47,147 nucleotides of DNA from a phage, in the sequence record PZ787336.1, one strand, 5' to 3'. Shown here piece after piece: positions 14,961 to 41,552 of this stretch. The position numbers and the translations under genes were made by a program. The notes under the pieces were generated by a model. The model ran no database searches, was not told where the DNA came from, and saw nothing but the letters and a program-made list of their open reading frames with translations. Numbering within the stretch: position 1 is the stretch's first letter; every line of letters begins with the position of its first letter.

Positions 14961-15283
14961 AACCCAGCCTCCTGTTTTGCGCGGTGAACGTACGACATGA
15001 ACTTGCCAATCGGCATTTCCTTGCGGATTTGCGCCAGTATCGCGCCATGCAAATATCTTTCCTCGCCGTAATACAGCTTATCGAGACGCGTTTTAATAAG
15101 CGCTCGCGTGCGCTTCATATGGTCGCGCGCCTTAAGTGCTTTCTCGTGCCAGACGCGGTCATTCTTCTTATCTGCATATTGCAGTTGACGCTCAACGGTT
15201 TCTATTTCAAACGCCAGTTGCACGTCATAATCTTCAAGTTGAATAATGTCTGCTTTCATGATGTCGTTTAACTGGATAATCAT
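14957..15283 (-). CDS. hypothetical protein
   Basis: 108 aa ORF in a tightly coupled minus-strand operon. Confidence 0.45.
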   Translation of the reverse strand: MIIQLNDIMKADIIQLEDYDVQLAFEIETVERQLQYADKKNDRVWHEKALKARDHMKRTRALIKTRLDKLYYGEERYLHGAILAQIRKEMPIGKFMSYVHRAKQEAGL

Positions 15284-15558
15284 TTTTTTATATTCTCCTC
15301 TAATGCATTGATTATGGATCTGGTCATGATGCCTTCGCCATTTACTGCGACGTGAGCACGAATCTCACTTAATGCCGCTTTAAGGACTCCAACATTCACA
15401 GAGACAATTCTCTGATTTTCTTTATTATTGATTTTCATTCTTTCGTATGCAGTTAACTCTTCCACTATCCAACCCATCTCTTTACGGTTATTGGCAATAA
15501 ACTCATCCGATGTTACAAACAGAGTTCTGCCTGATTTATGCTTAATAGCCCATCTCAT
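15280..15558 (-). CDS. hypothetical protein
   Basis: 92 aa ORF, overlapping start/stop with neighbours. Confidence 0.45.
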   Translation of the reverse strand: MRWAIKHKSGRTLFVTSDEFIANNRKEMGWIVEELTAYERMKINNKENQRIVSVNVGVLKAALSEIRAHVAVNGEGIMTRSIINALEENIKK

Positions 15559-15817
15559 TTAGTACGTCCTCAGCAAGTTTGCGGAACATGATTTGCACTC
15601 TTGCCACTTTGCGCCACTCAGCTTCGGTGAGAATCACATCCTCCTGCTGCGGAATTCCCGACATTTCGCATGGCGGTAATGGCTCATACTCTTGCTTCTT
15701 GCGTTTGGCTTTTCCCATGCTGACCTCTTGCGCTGCGAAGAAGTAAATTAAACAGGTTGCTGACATTAACCTCCTGCTCATGCCATGAGTAACGCCACAG
15801 CTTCTTGTGGTGGTCAT
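15542..15817 (-). CDS. hypothetical protein (start uncertain; may begin at internal Met)
   Basis: ORF begins inside a 19-bp tandem duplication. Confidence 0.4.
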   Translation of the reverse strand: MTTTRSCGVTHGMSRRLMSATCLIYFFAAQEVSMGKAKRKKQEYEPLPPCEMSGIPQQEDVILTEAEWRKVARVQIMFRKLAEDVLNEMGY

Positions 15818-15842
15818 AGCTTCTTGTGGTGGTCATAGCTTC
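15799..15842. repeat. perfect 19-bp tandem direct repeat (agcttcttgtggtggtcat x2 plus partial third copy)
   Basis: two identical adjacent copies at 15799-15817 and 15818-15836 straddling a gene boundary. Confidence 0.6.
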
Positions 15843-16245
15843 GCGTCACATCACCGTTATGAAACATAATGCGGATGCGGCTTTTCACGATGCGATAATC
15901 AATGCCAGTGGTGGTACTGATTTCTTTCACTTCCGCGCCAGCGTTATCAAGCAAATGGCACTTAATAGCATCATCAATACCGGCTGCATCATCAGAGATG
16001 AAATATTTATACTGCCACTTGCCGCCGCGAATCACTGACTTCTCGCGACGAATGAATCCAAGAGCAAGCATCTCATGTAAGCGATGCGTTGTGGTGCTTG
16101 AATGCTTACCTCCGCAATGCTTCTCAATGTATGCGCGCGTTGCTCCGGGGTGATTCATAATCACGCGCATGATTTGTGATTTATAGTCCATAATCACGCT
16201 CCTCTGCTGCCTGATTGAAGTCGTCGGAAGTGTAGAGGTGTCCAC
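15814..16245 (-). CDS. hypothetical protein, possibly truncated by the tandem duplication
   Basis: 143 aa; stop codon lies in the second repeat copy. Confidence 0.45.
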   Translation of the reverse strand: MDTSTLPTTSIRQQRSVIMDYKSQIMRVIMNHPGATRAYIEKHCGGKHSSTTTHRLHEMLALGFIRREKSVIRGGKWQYKYFISDDAAGIDDAIKCHLLDNAGAEVKEISTTTGIDYRIVKSRIRIMFHNGDVTRSYDHHKKL

Positions 16246-16426
16246 CTCTTGTGTTCCATTTCTTCATTGCCGTGGATGCGCAGCAATACGAGTCAGTGCG
16301 GCAAAAACAATCTCCGCACTCAACGTGCAACCATTCGCCGTCATCAATAACACTTACGTCATCACAACCACAAAACGGGCATTCAAGTAATTTCTCATCG
16401 TTCATTAGTAGTGTCATATTGCTCAC
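16181..16426 (-). CDS. Lar-like restriction alleviation protein (zinc-ribbon)
   Basis: 81 aa with CPFCG...C..C pattern and C-terminal KKWNTR, as in Lar-family proteins. Confidence 0.5.
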   Translation of the reverse strand: MSNMTLLMNDEKLLECPFCGCDDVSVIDDGEWLHVECGDCFCRTDSYCCASTAMKKWNTRGGHLYTSDDFNQAAEERDYGL

Positions 16427-16933
16427 CTTTTGTATTCAAAAATTTCCCGTGAACCATCTTTATGAGCCTGTTCCTCTCCTCTTTTGCTTGTGTTATTGAC
16501 GAGAATCTACCTCCATAATAATGCTTGCCATTGGCTGTAATTTGAACCCTCCACCTTTCTCGCGAAGAGTCCCAAACAACATCCTTAACTCCGCTTGTAT
16601 TATTGTTTTTCACGCCTACATTCATAACATTTTGACCTCTTGTGACCAATCTTAGGTTGCTGATGCGATTATCTTTCTTGTTCCCATTTATGTAATCAAT
16701 CTCATATCCGTTTGGTATATCTCCATTGCAAACAATCCACGCCATTCTGTGTGCGTAAAACCTCCCGATGGGGAGTTGAATTCTCCAATACCCATGCGAT
16801 GTAATACCTCCAGCCACCTTCCCTTTCTTTGATTTTCTTGAGAAATATCAATCCATAGAAAGTTTCCTGTATTTTCATCATACTGGAGGAACTTTAAAAT
16901 GCTTTCCTGACTAATGTTGCTCATTTCAACCAT
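16395..16933 (-). CDS. HNH-AP2 homing endonuclease, apparent frameshift
   Basis: N-terminal part (LQYDENTGNFLW...) in ORF 16688..16933, HNH (GYEIDYINGNKKDNRISNLR) and AP2 parts in ORF 16395..16817; frames differ by one base at a short A-run near 16819. Confidence 0.65.
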
Positions 16934-17679: not shown

Positions 17680-18186
17680 GGCATAGGAGAGATGAGCCGA
17701 GTAGGGAGTTTATATTGAGTTACCTTTACTACAATCCACTAACTGGGGAATTTAAATGGCTAAAGACAAGGAATAGGATTGCAGAAAAGGGAGTGTGGCT
17801 GGCTACTTAAAGCCAGATGGATATGTGCAAATAATTCTTTGCGGTAGGGCTTTTCTTGCTCACAGATTGGCATGGATATGCATTCATGGCGCGCCAGCAA
17901 GTGAAATGATTGACCACATAATGGCATTCGCAATGACAACAGGGCGTGCAATTTAAGGGAGGCCAGCAAATTTGAGAATAGCCACAACAAAGCAATGAAC
18001 AAAAACAACACTAGCGGTATCAAGGGGGTTAACTGGAGTTCATCGCACAACAAGTGGCATGCAAGAGTTGGAGTAAATGGCAAAAGATTCACAGTTGGTT
18101 ACTTTTCCGACATAAGAGAAGCAGAAGCAAAAATAAAAGAATTCAGGAGAATGCATCACAATGAGTTCACAAATCACGGGCGATAA
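17676..18186 (+). CDS. HNH-AP2 homing endonuclease, two apparent frameshifts
   Basis: N-terminal YYNPLTGEFKW in frame 1, GYLKPDGYVQI...AHRLAW...IDHI in a second frame, AP2 domain (GIKGVNWSSSHNKWHARVGVNGKRFTVGYF) in ORF 17995..18186; shifts at aaaaggg (17785-17791) and ataatgg (17918-17924). Confidence 0.65.
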
Positions 18187-18463
18187 GCGCCATACTGACG
18201 CAACAGAGCGACTCATCACCGAACGCGGTAGTCGATACGGTAAATTCAAAGACGGCGCTGAAATTATGCAGGAGTTGAAAGATGTGATGCGCGAGGTAGA
18301 TGGCTGGCGCAATCTCACACCAAGTCAACGCGAGGCGCTCGACATGATTCAGCACAAGATTGGGCGCATTCTGAATGGCGACCCGACTTATGATGACAGC
18401 TGGAAAGATATTGCTGGCTATGCAACGTTAATTGTTAATGAACTGAACGGAGAGATTAAATAA
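18161..18463 (+). CDS. hypothetical protein
   Basis: 100 aa ORF. Confidence 0.45.
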   Translation: MSSQITGDKRHTDATERLITERGSRYGKFKDGAEIMQELKDVMREVDGWRNLTPSQREALDMIQHKIGRILNGDPTYDDSWKDIAGYATLIVNELNGEIK

Positions 18464-21858: not shown

Positions 21859-22946
21859 CTAATTATTCATTATTTCATTCATTAATTCCGGTGAATACTT
21901 TAGCCACTCGGTGCATCCATTGAACCCACTAAGTCCAGCGGACTCATATCTATTATGATAATCGCTCTCCATTGATATTGCATCAACGCCTGAAAGTTTT
22001 ACGTACTTAATCACCTCAAACTCAAATGGCGTACTGCTTCTTAGTTGCATAATGCGTTGCTTTATTTTATTGGTTATCCCCACCTTTATTCCTTTCTCGC
22101 TCATTAGGAAGTAAACATACGATTTCTTATTCTTATCAAATCCTGTTACAGCGCATGATGGACATCCAGAACCTTGTATATGATGTGATGCTCGCTGTAC
22201 GAATACTCCATGGATGGGGCATGTTATTGACACGTTGGAGAGGGAGTTCTTGTAGCCGCACTTATCATAAATGTATTTATCTCCATGGACCGCCATTGAT
22301 TTTCTAGCAAAATCAGCTTCACTATCAGTTTGTGATTTTACTTGCTTGCTCTTACCGCAGGACGGACATCCACATCCAATCAGATGCACTGATGGTTTTT
22401 GCAATAAAACCCCATGAATTTCGCAAAGTATCATTACTTCTTTATTGTTTGCCTCATACTTAACGAGTGAGTAATCATATCTGTCACCATGAATGCCCTT
22501 TGATTTCTCAATAAACAGATCATTGCCAAGAGAATAAGACTTTGCTCTCTTTATGAGTCCGCAGCTAGGGCATCCCTGGCCATGTAAGTGATCTGATGGT
22601 CTTTGTTCAAATTCACCATGTCTTCGACAAACTATTACAACTTTTGATTCGCAATCTTTGTATTTAACTTTCGAGTATTCGTATGTATTAGAATGGATTT
22701 TTTTGCTTTTAATATAAACGATTCTGCATCGCTTCTTTTTGCGTTGCCTCTTCTGATGCACGCACACGCCGGACATCCATTACCAGCTAAATGATTTGAT
22801 GGTGATTGCATAAAATCACCATGCTCGCGACAGGTAATGATGACTTTAGTTTTTGAATTTTTGTAATTAGTCTTTGAATAATCATAACGATCGCCATATC
22901 GACAGATTACTTCAGAGATAAAGCGTGATGTCTTTTCTTTTGACAT
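21859..22946 (-). CDS. homing-endonuclease-like protein with tandem CPxCG zinc-ribbon repeats and C-terminal T5orf172 (GIY-YIG-like) domain, apparent frameshift
   Basis: first repeat unit in ORF 22635..22946, further units and the YVYFLMSEKGIKVGIT...TEW domain in ORF 21859..22776; frames meet at an A7 run (plus T7 at 22698-22704). Confidence 0.6.
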
Positions 22947-39045: not shown

Positions 39046-39984
39046 ATGAAAGTCTACTTCAACAATGAACTCACAAACGAACAGTACCATGCCGACACAG
39101 AGCACATTAATGGTTCTGGATTATGGAATATACTTGACAGATGCCCAGCAGCATGGCGCTACAAAGACGAAGAAGATGAGCAATCAAAAGCTCTTATCTT
39201 CGGAACTGGAAGCCATACTGCACTACTTGAACCTGAGCGTTTCGATGCAGAATATGCGCGAATGCCAACAAAAGAAGATTTTGGTGATGACCTGCTTGTT
39301 ACAGTTAGTGACATGAACTCATGGGCGAAAGAGCGTGGCATTAAAGGACTATCAGGGAAGTCGAAAGCTGAGGTAATCAAAATTATTCAGGCGACTGGCG
39401 AACCAGTGAAAATTTACGATGTCATCCGTGAAGATGCTGAAAAAGCTGCTGCAGGAAAGCAGATGCTGGAAGGTAGTGATTATGACGCAATTCAGCAAAT
39501 GCGTGCTGTAATACACGCAAACAGCTACTACAGCAGCCTTCTTGCTGGCGCTTATGCTGAAGTGTCAATTCTCGGTGAACTTAACGGAGAAAAAGCAAAA
39601 GTTCGTTTTGACTGCCTGACAAAAGGTGGTGACATTATTGACTACAAAACGGCAGTGAGCGCCAAGCCTGAAGAGTTTTTCCGTCATGCTGCGCGACTTG
39701 GCTACTTTATGAAAATGGCTATGCAACACGATATGTTTGTTGCTGCATACGGTTATGCGCCACGCTCTGTTAATCTTCTCGTTCAGGAAAAGAAAGCACC
39801 ATTTATTCCTGCGTTAATTCGCTTGACTGAAGAGCAATTACGCATCGGTCGAATTCAGTTGCATGGCGCTATGGAAATTTACAAGGCGTGCAAAAAAGCC
39901 AATTCGTGGCCCGGTTATTCAATGGGTAATCCTGTCATAGAAATGGAAACGCCTGAATGGTTCAAAAAACAGTTTAATTTATAA
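39046..39984 (+). CDS. PD-(D/E)xK family exonuclease (RecE/YqaJ-like recombination nuclease)
   Basis: 312 aa with D...DIIDYKT-type nuclease motif; lies in a recombination module upstream of the ATPase and SSB genes. Confidence 0.6.
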   Translation: MKVYFNNELTNEQYHADTEHINGSGLWNILDRCPAAWRYKDEEDEQSKALIFGTGSHTALLEPERFDAEYARMPTKEDFGDDLLVTVSDMNSWAKERGIKGLSGKSKAEVIKIIQATGEPVKIYDVIREDAEKAAAGKQMLEGSDYDAIQQMRAVIHANSYYSSLLAGAYAEVSILGELNGEKAKVRFDCLTKGGDIIDYKTAVSAKPEEFFRHAARLGYFMKMAMQHDMFVAAYGYAPRSVNLLVQEKKAPFIPALIRLTEEQLRIGRIQLHGAMEIYKACKKANSWPGYSMGNPVIEMETPEWFKKQFNL

Positions 39985-39992
39985 TTAGTGAG

Positions 39993-41042
39993 GTGATGAA
40001 AATGGGTATTCTCAATATTAAACCAGCAGAGCGTTCAGGTTCTCGTGTAGTCATCGGTATTTCAGGCCAGTCTGGTAGCGGAAAAACATACAGCGCACTT
40101 AAGCTGGCTCGCGGGATGGTTGACTCACCAGAAGAAATCGGATTCCTTGATACTGAAAATGGTCGCGGTCGCCTGTACTCAAACATCCTTGATGGCAAAT
40201 TCCTGCACGCTGATATGTATGCTCCATTCAGCCCGGCCCGTTACCGTCAGGCCATTGAAGAGTTTCAGGCTGCCGGCGTTAAGGTTCTTGTTATTGATTC
40301 AGGTTCGCATGAATGGGAAGGTGAAGGCAGTTGCACGGAGATTGCTGAAAAGCCGCTGCTTAACGGTAAAAAGATGGCTGACTGGAAGCGCGCCAAAGCT
40401 GAACACAAGAAGTTCATGAATGCCATGCTACAAAGCAATATGCATATCATTGTCTGTCTTCGCGCTCGCCAGAAAACTGACTTCGCAAACCCGAAGGAAC
40501 CTGTATCACTTGGGTTACAGCCAGTGTGCGAGAAAGATTTCATGTTCGAGATGACCGTGAGCATGATGATGCACGATGGAGGAAAAATTCAGGAGTTCAC
40601 CAAATTACCAGAAGAGCTACGCCCCATCTTCTTTGAGTCTGGTCGTGAAAGCGTTCGTCATGGCTATATTGGAGAGGCTCATGGTCGAGGACTCATCAAA
40701 TGGGTGGACTCTGGTGTTAAAGTTGACGAAGAGTTTGAATCATGGCGCTCACGACTTCAGCTTTCAGCAGCAAAAGGAATGGAAGGACTGAAGGAAGAGG
40801 CGAAATCAATACCTGATAACCTGAAAGATAAGATTCGTGCAATATGGCCTTCTCTCGCTGCTTCTGCTGCTGAATATGATCGCATTGAGTCTTTTATCAA
40901 TGATGAGCAATTATCTCCTGTGGTAATAACTCCGCAGGATAATTTCGACCCTGCAAAACTGGCTAAACCGCAACCACAACAGCCAGAGCCACAGGAAGAA
41001 ACCAAAACCGAACATAAACCAACTCCAATTGAAGGATTTTAA
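39993..41042 (+). CDS. RecA-like / AAA ATPase (Sak4-like recombination ATPase candidate)
   Basis: Walker A GQSGSGKT and Walker B VLVIDSG; Pro/Gln-rich C-terminal tail. Confidence 0.6.
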   Translation: MMKMGILNIKPAERSGSRVVIGISGQSGSGKTYSALKLARGMVDSPEEIGFLDTENGRGRLYSNILDGKFLHADMYAPFSPARYRQAIEEFQAAGVKVLVIDSGSHEWEGEGSCTEIAEKPLLNGKKMADWKRAKAEHKKFMNAMLQSNMHIIVCLRARQKTDFANPKEPVSLGLQPVCEKDFMFEMTVSMMMHDGGKIQEFTKLPEELRPIFFESGRESVRHGYIGEAHGRGLIKWVDSGVKVDEEFESWRSRLQLSAAKGMEGLKEEAKSIPDNLKDKIRAIWPSLAASAAEYDRIESFINDEQLSPVVITPQDNFDPAKLAKPQPQQPEPQEETKTEHKPTPIEGF

Positions 41043-41045
41043 TAA

Positions 41046-41552
41046 ATGGCACGCGGCGTAAATAAAGTAATTATTGTCGGCACTCTCGGAAACGACCCTG
41101 AAGTTAAATATTCAGCATCAGGCTCTGCAATTGCCAACCTTTCTGTTGCAACATCTGAGCAGTGGAAAGATAAGCAGACAGGAGAAAAGAAAGAACAGAC
41201 CGAGTGGCATCGCGTGGTCATCTTCGGGAAACTTGCTGAGATTGCAGGCGAATACCTTCGCAAAGGTTCTCAGGTTTATATCGAAGGCCAGCTACGCACT
41301 CGTAAGTGGACTGACAGCAACGGCGTGGACAAATACACCACTGAGATTGTCATTCCGCAGATGGGTGGTGTTATGCAGATGCTTGGTGGTAGACGTGATG
41401 ATTCTGATCAGCAACAACCACGCCAGCAATCAGGACAGCAACCTCAAGGTGGATGGGGGACAAATCCGCAACAACAACAGCCACAAAAACAACAAAGCCC
41501 ACAAGGAGGCAATGAGCCGCCGATTGACTTCGACGACGACATTCCGTTCTGA
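41046..41552 (+). CDS. ssb: single-stranded DNA-binding protein
   Basis: OB-fold N-terminal region, Gln/Pro/Gly-rich linker and acidic C-terminal tail DFDDDIPF. Confidence 0.9.

What the first reader, a model, noticed from the sequence alone, without database searches (positions are those of the whole stretch)
15799..15842. Perfect 19-bp tandem duplication at a gene boundary that creates a stop and a new start
agcttcttgtggtggtcat occurs twice in tandem (15799-15817 and 15818-15836) followed by a partial third copy. On the minus strand the duplication puts a TGA into the upstream gene (15814..16245) and supplies the ATG of the next ORF (15542..15817). Without the second copy the upstream frame would read on for about 27 more codons. 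This looks like a recent slippage event or an assembly artefact.
Basis: seen in the sequence. Interest (0 to 1): 0.4.

Follow-up and report, generated by a model that had tools for sequence, protein, structure and literature searches.

The report
Frameshifting 19-bp duplication truncating a phage gene
A perfect 19-base tandem duplication inside (not between) a conserved phage regulator-like gene shifts the frame and cuts off its last 37 amino acids; it is an ordinary kind of mutation, made mildly notable because three other related lineages lose exactly the same tail by other mutations.

Summary
The repeat is real: 15799-15842, period 19, 2.3 perfect copies, far beyond chance. The window is a Skatevirus-like lytic siphophage. 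At least 88 sampled relatives carry one copy, inside a conserved 162-codon gene for a tandem winged-helix protein (PHROG 1687). The one-copy allele already has GAAGCT repeated 19 nt apart, the classic substrate for a misalignment duplication. The extra 19 nt stop the protein after Leu125, removing the second strand of the second wing and a C-terminal helix, a tail conserved even in homologues of 36-41% identity. What is new is an orphan 50-codon tail ORF (15684-15836) with no ribosome-binding site. The same duplication occurs in INT55/INT59/CECAV048, and two other lineages carry TGG->TAG or TGG->TGA at codon 126. So four alleles end at Leu125. The duplication also lies in the 90-nt interval where near-identity to the closest relative collapses, about 580 nt from an HNH homing-endonuclease gene. 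An artefact is unlikely but not excluded, since the window has five homopolymer deletions. This is a known kind of mutation and of modest interest.

The parts
15818..15836 (-). Upstream copy (in coding sense) of the 19-nt unit ATGACCACCACAAGAAGCT. Its ATG (15836-15834) opens the orphan tail ORF.
15799..15817 (-). Downstream copy of the unit. Its ATG (15817-15815) overlaps the new TGA stop (15816-15814) as ATGA.
15837..15842 (-). Partial third copy, GAAGCT. This is the 6-nt microhomology already present 19 nt apart in one-copy relatives (9 nt, GAAGCTATG, in genomes with the A allele).
15814..16191 (-). Truncated tandem winged-helix gene (125 codons plus TGA). It matches PHROG 1687 profile positions 1-119 of 162. 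The full-length form in relatives is 162 aa.
15684..15836 (-). Orphan tail ORF created by the duplication (50 aa: MTTTRS + YDHHKKLWRYSW...). It matches PHROG 1687 positions 111-161. It has no usable Shine-Dalgarno sequence (-3.0 kcal/mol, badly spaced).
   Evidence: annotated as a CDS in CECAV048
15542..15718 (-). Conserved 58-aa downstream gene (MGKAKRKK..., PHROG 17117) with its own Shine-Dalgarno sequence AAGAGG. This is the real next gene.
15542..15817 (-). The same frame is closed in about 37 of 42 relatives.
15796..15886 (.). Interval that must contain the recombination breakpoint between the window and its closest relative L038. There are 0 mismatches from 16571 to 15843, then 13 mismatches within 15726-15796.
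16181..16426 (-). Lar-like restriction-alleviation gene directly upstream. It overlaps the wHTH start.
   Evidence: PF14354, E 6.7e-10
16395..16933 (-). HNH_3 homing-endonuclease gene, split in this window by a 1-nt homopolymer deletion at about 16846. Among 42 related loci it is present only in ZCEC08 and L038-L042.

Best explanation
This is a genuine, evolutionarily recent 19-bp tandem duplication inside a conserved 162-codon early gene of a Skatevirus-like lytic siphophage. The gene encodes a protein made of two winged-helix domains plus a C-terminal tail. The one-copy allele carries GAAGCT(R)TG twice, 19 nt apart. Misaligned pairing of these microhomologies duplicated the intervening unit, either by replication slippage or, as I think slightly more likely here, by out-of-register annealing at the end of a recombination or gene-conversion tract. 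Because 19 = 18 + 1, the frame shifts and a TGA follows Leu125 at once. The protein therefore loses the second beta-strand of its second wing and its C-terminal helix (37 aa). The tail survives only as a 50-codon ORF opened by the first copy's ATG. That ORF has no ribosome-binding site, so it is probably little translated or not at all. The phage tolerates this because the gene is accessory. Shown: the repeat, the one-copy ancestry, the microhomology, the frameshift and its endpoint, conservation of the tail, recurrence in another lineage, and the coincident mosaic breakpoint. Inferred: the mechanism of formation, the lack of tail translation, and dispensability in this particular phage.
For: The repeat is perfect and unique in the genome. 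One copy is found in ZCEC08, C1, 31 of 31 IMG/VR loci and all 57 other listed GenBank phage records. The microhomology GAAGCT / GAAGCTATG flanks the unit in one-copy genomes. Relatives encode a 162-aa protein. Codon-position changes in the tail are 14/13/29, enriched at the third position, against 39/24/139 in the body. The tail motif is kept in homologues of 36-41% identity, and the PHROG 1687 profile is 162 positions long. The AF2 model (mean pLDDT 80; 90 or more over residues 71-130) puts the wing hairpin at strand 115-120, turn 121-124 and strand 125-130, with a low-confidence helix at 140-149 (pLDDT about 55-62). A weak AspA alignment agrees. The same unit is duplicated in the same register in INT55, INT59 and CECAV048. 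There is no tree support for common descent with the window (bootstrap 0/200), and the window's genome-wide nearest relatives have one copy. Shine-Dalgarno energies are -9.5 and -6.5 kcal/mol for the real starts, against -3.0 and -0.8 for the repeat ATGs. The window/L038 divergence jumps from 0.46% to about 8-18% exactly at the repeat. An HNH gene lies about 580 nt upstream, and near-identity tracts of different lengths are shared with the other HNH+ genomes. A PDDEXK nuclease, AAA_24 (Sak4-type) protein and SSB module is present. Sak4 is a single-strand-annealing protein stimulated by its SSB, and such recombinases generate phage mosaicism (PMC5928155, PMC5499656, abstracts). Nuclease genes mark boundaries of genetic exchange between phages (PMC10448857, title). 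Dispensability: loss of the block 'genes 3-10' gave viable mutants of the one-copy relative seszw (PMC9825161), where this gene is Seszw_7. Frameshifted alleles also exist elsewhere.
Against: No reads are available, so the two-copy state in this particular genome is unverified. The window shows at least five 1-nt homopolymer deletions relative to otherwise identical relatives, so its sequence quality is imperfect. The downstream parent of the putative recombination event was not found (best match 93-95%). Slippage and misaligned recombination therefore cannot be separated, and the coincidence of breakpoint and repeat is a post-hoc observation (roughly p = 0.03-0.07). The seszw gene numbering in the paper is assumed to match the GenBank locus tags. 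Translation of the tail ORF by termination-reinitiation cannot be ruled out.
Confidence: 0.72

Rival explanations
1. Selected truncation. Removing the C-terminal tail (second wing strand plus helix) is advantageous in some hosts, for example because the tail is sensed by a defence system or is an inhibitory or regulatory module. Lineages then shed it by whatever mutation is available, and the duplication is one such route. This elaborates the best explanation rather than excluding it.
For: Four independent alleles end at exactly Leu125. They are the window's duplication, the INT55-group duplication, TGG->TGA in L037 and TGG->TAG in L038-L042. The chance that two independent nonsense transitions both hit codon 126 is (2/13)^2 = 0.024 gene-wide, or 0.06 within the tail. 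The window and L038 share a 99.5%-identical upstream region yet are truncated by different mutations. The gene sits among early, host-interaction-type genes next to a Lar-like restriction-alleviation gene, and there is a weak Ren-like exclusion PHROG hit (E 2.7e-5).
Against: The gene is also broken at several other positions in other genomes (L032, L034, P0004, P0009, P0013, P0015, P0035, P0039). That fits simple dispensability. The duplication's endpoint is dictated by where the microhomology lies, not by selection. TGG is one of few codons that give stops by transition. Most genomes (at least 88 sampled) keep the full 162 aa, with purifying selection on the tail. No phenotype data exist.
Confidence: 0.25
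2. Assembly or sequencing artefact. The genome really has one copy, and the second copy was introduced during assembly or polishing.
For: The window carries five 1-nt deletions, all in homopolymer runs and all in the same direction, relative to relatives that are otherwise locally identical (16846, 17788, 17919, 20052, 27309). This is typical of error-prone reads. No other sampled genome carries this exact two-copy allele: the junction pattern has 0 hits in IMG/VR, and the window's tail ORF and 91-aa ORF are absent from the 15-billion-protein collection.
Against: Homopolymer undercalls are base-level errors, not structural duplications. The duplicated unit is bounded by the natural microhomology. 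It is identical in unit and register to the duplication in three separately sequenced phages from another lineage, plus an NCBI and a Logan record. A random artefact, such as an untrimmed k-mer overlap, would hit that exact site with probability of order 1 in 47,000.
Confidence: 0.1
3. Functional gene fission. The duplication converts one gene into two translated pieces, wHTH 1-125 and a 50-aa tail peptide made by termination-reinitiation at the first-copy ATG 19 nt upstream of the stop. The two pieces reassemble across the wing beta-turn.
For: The tail ORF is intact in the window and in the INT55 group. The two differences between the INT55 copies (CAC CAC -> CAT CAT) are synonymous only in the tail frame. 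The split falls in a surface beta-turn. CECAV048's annotators called the tail ORF as a gene.
Against: There is no Shine-Dalgarno sequence for the tail ORF. The CAT CAT allele also exists in one-copy genomes (L007, L011, L014, L032), so the 'synonymous' differences may simply come from recombination between alleles. INT55 and CECAV048 are identical around the repeat, so there has been no time to observe decay or conservation. The nonsense alleles (L037, L038) have no way of making the tail, yet persist.
Confidence: 0.08
4. Reversible contingency switch. The unit expands and contracts at high frequency, so populations toggle between the full-length and truncated protein.
For: Perfect tandem duplications are inherently unstable and can revert by precise deletion (general knowledge). 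The same site has duplicated at least twice.
Against: Only one- and two-copy states were seen. Just 4 of roughly 90-140 genomes have two copies. No three-copy alleles were found. The one-copy state is not a repeat tract, so forward rates should be low. Population data are unavailable.
Confidence: 0.05

Closest known systems
Microhomology-flanked frameshifting tandem duplications (slipped or misaligned pairing, as classically described for phage T4 rII and lysozyme frameshift mutants; from general knowledge)
   Same: Perfect head-to-tail copy of a short unit. The unit is bounded in the ancestral allele by a short direct repeat (GAAGCT, or GAAGCTATG). Its length is not a multiple of three, so the frame shifts and a nearby stop truncates the protein.
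   Different: Here the duplication coincides with a mosaic recombination breakpoint near a homing-endonuclease gene. The identical duplication also exists in a second lineage whose copies carry two different natural alleles.
PHROG 1687 'MarR family transcription regulator' / winged-helix DNA-binding proteins (MarR, AspA, tandem-WH proteins)
   Same: Strong PHROG profile match (E 2.7e-55). The model shows helix-turn-helix plus beta-hairpin wing twice. Fold hits are to MarR-family and tandem winged-helix proteins.
   Different: Pfam MarR_2 and MarR scores are below the gathering thresholds. The architecture is two wHTH domains in one short chain plus a tail, not the MarR single wHTH with N- and C-terminal dimerisation helices. 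There is no close structural relative (best Foldseek E 1.3e-3, TM below 0.4). The family is tiny: 8 representatives among 1.84 billion. Function is untested.
Homing-endonuclease-associated co-conversion tracts; nuclease genes at boundaries of genetic exchange between phages (PMC10448857, PMC2790892, PMC2330249; abstracts)
   Same: A free-standing HNH gene present in only some relatives. HNH+ genomes share near-identical DNA around it, with tracts ending at different points. One of these tract ends falls at the repeat.
   Different: The cleavage site and activity of this HNH are unknown. In the window the gene is itself split by a 1-nt deletion. A tandem duplication as a tract-end scar is my inference, not a described feature.
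Programmed ribosomal frameshifting or overlapping-gene coupling
   Same: Two overlapping frames and an ATGA stop/start overlap.
   Different: No slippery heptamer, no stimulatory structure (z = -0.21), and relatives encode a single uninterrupted ORF. A -1 shift would be required, with no suitable site for it.

Membership tests
Microhomology-mediated tandem duplication (mutation class) | Perfect or near-perfect head-to-tail copies of one unit | tested here: met
   TRF reports 100% matches over 2.3 copies. There are two exact 19-mers.
Microhomology-mediated tandem duplication (mutation class) | The unduplicated allele exists in close relatives and carries a short direct repeat at both ends of the unit | tested here: met
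   One copy is found in ZCEC08, C1, L005-L042 and at least 57 GenBank records. GAAGCT(R)TG occurs 19 nt apart in them.
Microhomology-mediated tandem duplication (mutation class) | The two-copy state is physically present in the DNA (reads or PCR) | not testable with these tools
   No reads are available. The only indirect support is the same duplication in INT55, INT59 and CECAV048.
MarR family (Pfam PF01047 / PF12802) | Score at or above the Pfam gathering threshold | tested here: not met
   MarR_2 scores 20.1 bits against a cutoff of 27, and MarR 15.7 against 24.6.
MarR family (Pfam PF01047 / PF12802) | A single wHTH flanked by N- and C-terminal helices that form the dimer interface | tested here: not met
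   The AF2 model shows two tandem wHTH domains (H3-13, H19-25, H31-44, E47-54, E58-65; H69-82, H88-95, H99-111, E115-120, E125-130) and a short C-terminal helix.
PHROG 1687 (phage 'MarR family transcription regulator') | Full-length match to the 162-position profile | tested here: met
   The one-copy homologue P0005 matches positions 1-161 (E 2.7e-55). The window's protein covers only profile positions 1-119, and its tail ORF covers 111-161.
PHROG 1687 (phage 'MarR family transcription regulator') | Sequence-specific DNA binding or transcriptional regulation | not testable with these tools
   No experimental data were found. The name is an annotation only.
Programmed ribosomal frameshift site | Slippery sequence plus downstream stimulatory structure, with the two-frame arrangement conserved in relatives | tested here: not met
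   There is no X XXY YYZ motif in the sequence. The RNA fold z-score is -0.21. Relatives have one continuous ORF.
Phase-variable contingency repeat | A range of copy numbers among closely related genomes or populations | tested here: inconclusive
   Only one or two copies were seen, and two copies occur in two lineages. Within-population variation is not testable.
Iteron / operator repeat | Further copies of the unit elsewhere, or located in non-coding control DNA | tested here: not met
   There is no other match with up to 3 mismatches in 47 kb. The unit lies inside a coding region under codon-level constraint. No promoter or terminator is adjacent.

The most novel reading that the evidence does not exclude
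The 37-residue tail (second wing strand plus C-terminal helix) of this narrow-family tandem winged-helix protein is a recurrent target of selection in Skatevirus-like phages, for example as the part sensed by a host defence or as an auto-inhibitory module. Lineages then repeatedly shed it at exactly Leu125 by duplication or nonsense mutation. In this reading the microhomology-flanked 19-nt unit acts as a ready-made, reversible off-switch that is triggered when homing-endonuclease-driven recombination tracts end there.
Probability: 0.15. Interest if true: 0.55.

Novelty: new member of a known kind. Interest (0 to 1): 0.3.

Why it matters
On its own this is a routine frameshift mutation in an accessory phage gene. 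Its main practical value is for annotation. The locus should be read as one disrupted 162-codon gene plus the conserved 58-aa gene, not as a 143-aa and a 91-aa gene. Two aspects go a little further. First, four independent alleles truncate the protein at the same residue. That makes the tail of an uncharacterised, very narrowly distributed tandem winged-helix early protein a cheap, testable candidate for a host-interaction determinant, because natural full-length and truncated pairs already exist. Second, the duplication sits at a sharp mosaic breakpoint next to a homing-endonuclease gene in a phage with a Sak4-type annealing module. That gives a concrete example of how misaligned annealing at the end of a conversion tract might leave a scar, and co-infection experiments could test it.

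Tried and rejected
(1) The metagenome scan with a 16-nt junction pattern returned 120 hits. None lies in the real gene context. (2) IMG/VR scans for the duplication junction and for the TAG allele gave 0 hits. (3) The first AF2 run, on nine near-identical sequences, gave pLDDT below 50 beyond residue 68 and was discarded. Adding three distant homologues fixed this. (4) I searched for one-copy parents of the INT55 duplication to test unequal crossover between the CAC CAC and CAT CAT alleles. The nearest other records are only 88-92% identical, so the test was impossible. (5) The 13 synonymous / 3 non-synonymous differences between INT55 and CECAV048 in the truncated body looked at first like purifying selection after the duplication. 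I rejected that reading because the differences lie in a recombined patch that ends about 100 nt upstream of the repeat. (6) The initial NJ tree grouped the window with INT55, but bootstrap support was 0/200. (7) An iteron or operator role, an RNA structure, a nearby promoter or terminator, tRNA and Rfam families all gave nothing. (8) E. coli chromosomes have no match, so this is not a prophage. (9) No supplementary tables are held for the seszw gene-essentiality paper. (10) Programmed frameshifting or readthrough to restore the full-length protein was rejected. It would need a -1 shift with no slippery site, and UGA readthrough would continue in the wrong frame.

Full report
OBSERVATION. The sequence at 15799-15842 is as described. 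On the + strand, agcttcttgtggtggtcat occurs twice in tandem, followed by agcttc. Tandem Repeats Finder gives period 19, 2.3 copies, 100% matches and score 88, the strongest array in the window; the next scores 54. A search for the 19-mer with up to 3 mismatches finds only these two copies in 47 kb. None of 100 dinucleotide-preserving shuffles gives two hits. Twenty-five consecutive matches at a fixed lag have an expectation of about 47147 x 4^-25, roughly 4e-11, so this is not chance.

CONTEXT. The window is a complete-genome-sized sequence of a lytic small siphophage of the Skatevirus/Deseoctovirus cluster. Its genome-wide nearest relative is Escherichia phage vB_Eco_ZCEC08 (95.6% identity over 85% of the first 25 kb), followed by ST1UNAM, 6947 and HC6. 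It has no match in E. coli chromosomes. BASEL phages Bas77-81 belong to the same cluster, described as O-antigen-dependent small siphoviruses (10.1101/2024.09.12.612763). All genes at the locus are on the minus strand. In coding order they are:
- an HNH_3 homing endonuclease (16933/16817-16395);
- a Lar-like restriction-alleviation gene (16426-16181; PF14354, E 6.7e-10);
- the gene containing the repeat (ATG 16191, strong Shine-Dalgarno sequence GAGGAG, -9.5 kcal/mol);
- a conserved 58-aa gene (ATG 15718, Shine-Dalgarno sequence AAGAGG, -6.5 kcal/mol; PHROG 17117).

WHAT THE RELATIVES SHOW. Aligning across the site shows that ZCEC08 and C1 have one copy. So do all 31 IMG/VR loci, the six Logan contigs and every other listed GenBank record, where 121 query bases align to 102. 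In these genomes the unit lies inside a 162-codon ORF whose last 35 nt overlap the start of the 58-aa gene. The region downstream of the repeat is coding in that frame. Minimum substitutions by codon position are 14/13/29 in the tail, against 39/24/139 in the body. In the 35-nt overlap the pattern switches to the frame of the 58-aa gene. A profile search of 1.84 billion representative proteins finds only eight hits. The three distant ones (36-41% identity) keep the tail motif W-[KR]-Y-x-W...F-x-x-L-L-x-x-A-R. The PHROG 1687 profile is 162 positions long. The window's 125-aa product covers positions 1-119 and its leftover tail ORF covers 111-161. So the tail is an old, integral part of the protein, and the window's state is derived.

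WHAT THE DUPLICATION DOES. On the coding strand the one-copy allele reads ...CGC GAA GCT ATG ACC ACC ACA AGA AGC TGT GG... In the gene's own frame this is ...R S Y D H H K K L W... The hexamer GAAGCT occurs twice, 19 nt apart. In genomes with A instead of G at the next position the repeat is 9 nt, GAAGCTATG. Duplicating the 19 nt between these microhomologies adds 6 codons plus 1 nt. The gene's frame now reads AAG AAG CTA TGA and ends after Leu125.

An AlphaFold2 model built with the distant homologues has mean pLDDT 80, and 90 or more over residues 71-130. It shows two tandem winged-helix domains. The wing of the second consists of strand 115-120, turn 121-124 and strand 125-130. A low-confidence linker and helix 140-149 follow. 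A weak PDB profile match to the wHTH protein AspA (E about 0.05) aligns the same elements. The 19-nt unit therefore encodes the end of wing strand 1 plus the beta-turn. The truncation removes wing strand 2 and everything after it. Foldseek finds only generic winged-helix and tandem-WH proteins (best E 1.3e-3, TM below 0.4). Pfam MarR models score below threshold. I therefore call the protein a tandem winged-helix protein of PHROG 1687, not a MarR.

THE 'NEW START'. The ATG in the unit is present in all 42 related loci, including the one-copy ones. The frame from it into the 58-aa gene is closed by stop codons in about 37 of the 42. ORF 15542-15817 (91 aa) is therefore an accidental in-frame extension of the real 58-aa gene. 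The duplication does bring that old ATG into an ATGA overlap with a stop codon. It also creates one genuinely new ORF, 15684-15836. The first copy's ATG was out of frame in the ancestor. It is now followed, 19 nt later, by the original frame, giving MTTTRS + YDHHKKLWRYSW... (50 aa). Neither repeat ATG has a usable Shine-Dalgarno sequence (-3.0 kcal/mol with bad spacing, and -0.8 kcal/mol). Any translation would therefore have to come from termination-reinitiation. I consider the tail most likely lost.

RECURRENCE. Salmonella phages INT55, INT59 and vB_CECAV_048 carry the same unit duplicated in the same register. They are identical to each other from about 100 nt upstream of the repeat to far downstream, so I count them as one event. 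The same 125-aa product also occurs in an NCBI record and on a 45-kb Logan contig. Their second copy reads CAT CAT where the first reads CAC CAC. Both alleles occur among one-copy genomes. The difference may therefore date from formation by crossover between alleles rather than from later mutation. No close parents exist in the database to test this. A local NJ tree is star-like, and bootstrap support for window + INT55 is 0/200. Two independent duplications is thus the simpler reading, though a shared origin moved by recombination is not excluded.

Looking up 125-aa proteins led to two further alleles. L037 (Logan SRR9897400) has one copy and TGG->TGA at codon 126. L038-L042 come from five runs of one ENA project and encode a 125-aa protein identical to the window's. 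They have one copy and TGG->TAG at codon 126. So four alleles end at Leu125. With 13 possible nonsense transitions in the gene, two of them in codon 126, two independent hits there have probability 0.024. That is suggestive, not decisive. The gene is also broken elsewhere in other genomes (L032, L034, P0004, P0009, P0013, P0015, P0035, P0039). In the one-copy relative seszw this gene is Seszw_7. A genome-reduction study of seszw reports viable loss of a block called 'genes 3-10' (PMC9825161), assuming the numbering matches the GenBank tags. The gene is therefore probably accessory under laboratory conditions.

HOW IT AROSE. L038 is the window's closest relative at this locus. From 18688 to 15843 the two differ at 13 positions (0.46%), with none between 16571 and 15843. 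Then comes the 19-nt indel. Then come 13 mismatches in the next 71 nt, the first at 15796, with about 8% divergence onward. Because the stretch 15783-15885 is nearly invariant in all relatives, the crossover must lie between 15886 and 15796. That 90-nt interval is half occupied by the repeat. ZCEC08 shows a similar near-identical tract that ends earlier, at about 16196. Among the 42 loci, only the window, ZCEC08 and L038-L042 carry the HNH gene at 16395-16933, and they are at least 99.4% identical over it. The window also encodes a PDDEXK-like nuclease, an AAA_24 (Sak4-type) protein and an SSB in a row. Sak4 is a single-strand-annealing recombinase stimulated by its cognate SSB, and such proteins recombine diverged DNA and generate mosaicism (PMC5928155, PMC5499656). 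Homing endonucleases drive conversion of flanking DNA, and nuclease genes mark exchange boundaries in phages (PMC2790892, PMC10448857). My preferred reading is that a conversion tract spreading from the HNH region ended in the conserved stretch and annealed one microhomology out of register, leaving the duplication. Plain replication slippage on the same microhomology explains the duplication equally well, but not the coincident breakpoint. The coincidence is post hoc, at roughly p = 0.03-0.07.

ARTEFACT? Against both ZCEC08 and ST1UNAM, the window has five 1-nt deletions. All are in homopolymer runs, all are in the same direction, and all lie in otherwise identical sequence (16846, 17788, 17919, 20052, 27309). 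At the three sites that L038 covers (16846, 17788, 17919), L038 agrees with the relatives against the window. This looks like read-level error and lowers trust in the assembly. A perfect 19-nt structural duplication is a different kind of event. It is bounded by the natural microhomology and matches the INT55-type allele in unit and register, which a random assembly error would hit with probability of order 1 in 47,000. I put the artefact at about 0.1. Only reads or PCR can settle it.

OTHER ROLES EXCLUDED. There are no further copies of the unit, no RNA structure above background (z = -0.21), no adjacent promoter or terminator, no tRNA and no Rfam family. There is also no slippery site that could restore the frame.

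VERDICT. It is partly wrong: the site is not a gene boundary, the ATG is not new, and the tail ORF was missed. The feature is a microhomology-mediated frameshifting tandem duplication that truncates an accessory tandem winged-helix protein, which is a known kind of mutation. The convergent truncations at Leu125 and the coincidence with a mosaic breakpoint next to a homing-endonuclease gene are the only unusual aspects. They justify a modest score.

Noticed in passing
window 16846, 17788, 17919, 20052, 27309: Five single-base deletions, all in short homopolymer runs and all in the window rather than the relatives, within sequence otherwise locally identical to ZCEC08, ST1UNAM and L038. They split at least two HNH endonuclease genes. 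The pattern suggests homopolymer sequencing errors in this assembly, or else pseudogenisation of the HNH genes.
   Followed up: partly
L037 1876-1878; L038 2876-2878 (also L039-L042): Independent nonsense mutations at the same codon (W126) of the same gene: TGG->TGA in L037 and TGG->TAG in five Logan contigs from one ENA project. They give the same 125-aa product as the window's duplication.
   Followed up: yes
window 16395-16933 (-) and about 17680-18190 (-): Free-standing HNH_3 homing-endonuclease genes flank the small early-gene cluster. The one next to the Lar-like gene is present in only 7 of the 43 genomes compared (the window plus 6 of 42 related loci). All 7 are at least 99.4% identical around it, and their near-identity tracts end at different points (about 16196 against ZCEC08; 15796-15886 against L038).
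   Followed up: partly
window 39046-41552 (+): Recombination module: a PDDEXK-like nuclease (DUF3799, E 6e-25), an AAA_24 (Sak4-type) protein (E 4e-12) and an SSB (E 9e-39). In ZCEC08 a further HNH gene is inserted between the SSB and recombinase genes.
   Followed up: partly
window 15280-15558 (-): The 92-aa ORF downstream of the 58-aa gene shares only its first 34 or so residues with the 134-140-aa PF26207/PHROG 343 proteins found at this position in relatives. The alignment to L038 and others breaks at about 15458. This is another mosaic junction inside a gene.
   Followed up: no
L032, L034 (IMG/VR); proteins P0004, P0009, P0013, P0015, P0017, P0035, P0039: The same winged-helix gene is disrupted in several other ways in public assemblies: 1-nt frameshifts near codons 15-45, later frameshifts, and one in-frame internal deletion joining HRLHE to KLWRYSW (P0017).
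   Followed up: partly
L003 (vB_CECAV_048), 58-aa gene: CECAV048 has a 1-nt deletion in the conserved 58-aa gene relative to the otherwise identical INT55, giving a frameshifted 52-aa product.
   Followed up: no
one-copy homologue P0005, residues 63-135 (window protein residues 63-121): Weak PHROG 142 'Ren-like exclusion protein' match (E 2.7e-5, no stretch passing on its own) over the second winged-helix domain. This is a possible hint of a host-takeover or exclusion-related role.
   Followed up: no
protein cluster of P0001 (494 members): The 90%-identity cluster holding the winged-helix protein also contains many copies of the unrelated 58-aa downstream protein. This implies that some member is a fusion of the two genes, or that the overlap produced a clustering artefact.
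   Followed up: no
whole window: No tRNA gene was found, whereas the ZCEC08 record annotates a tRNA-Ile at 22621-22694. No Rfam family reaches its gathering score.
   Followed up: no
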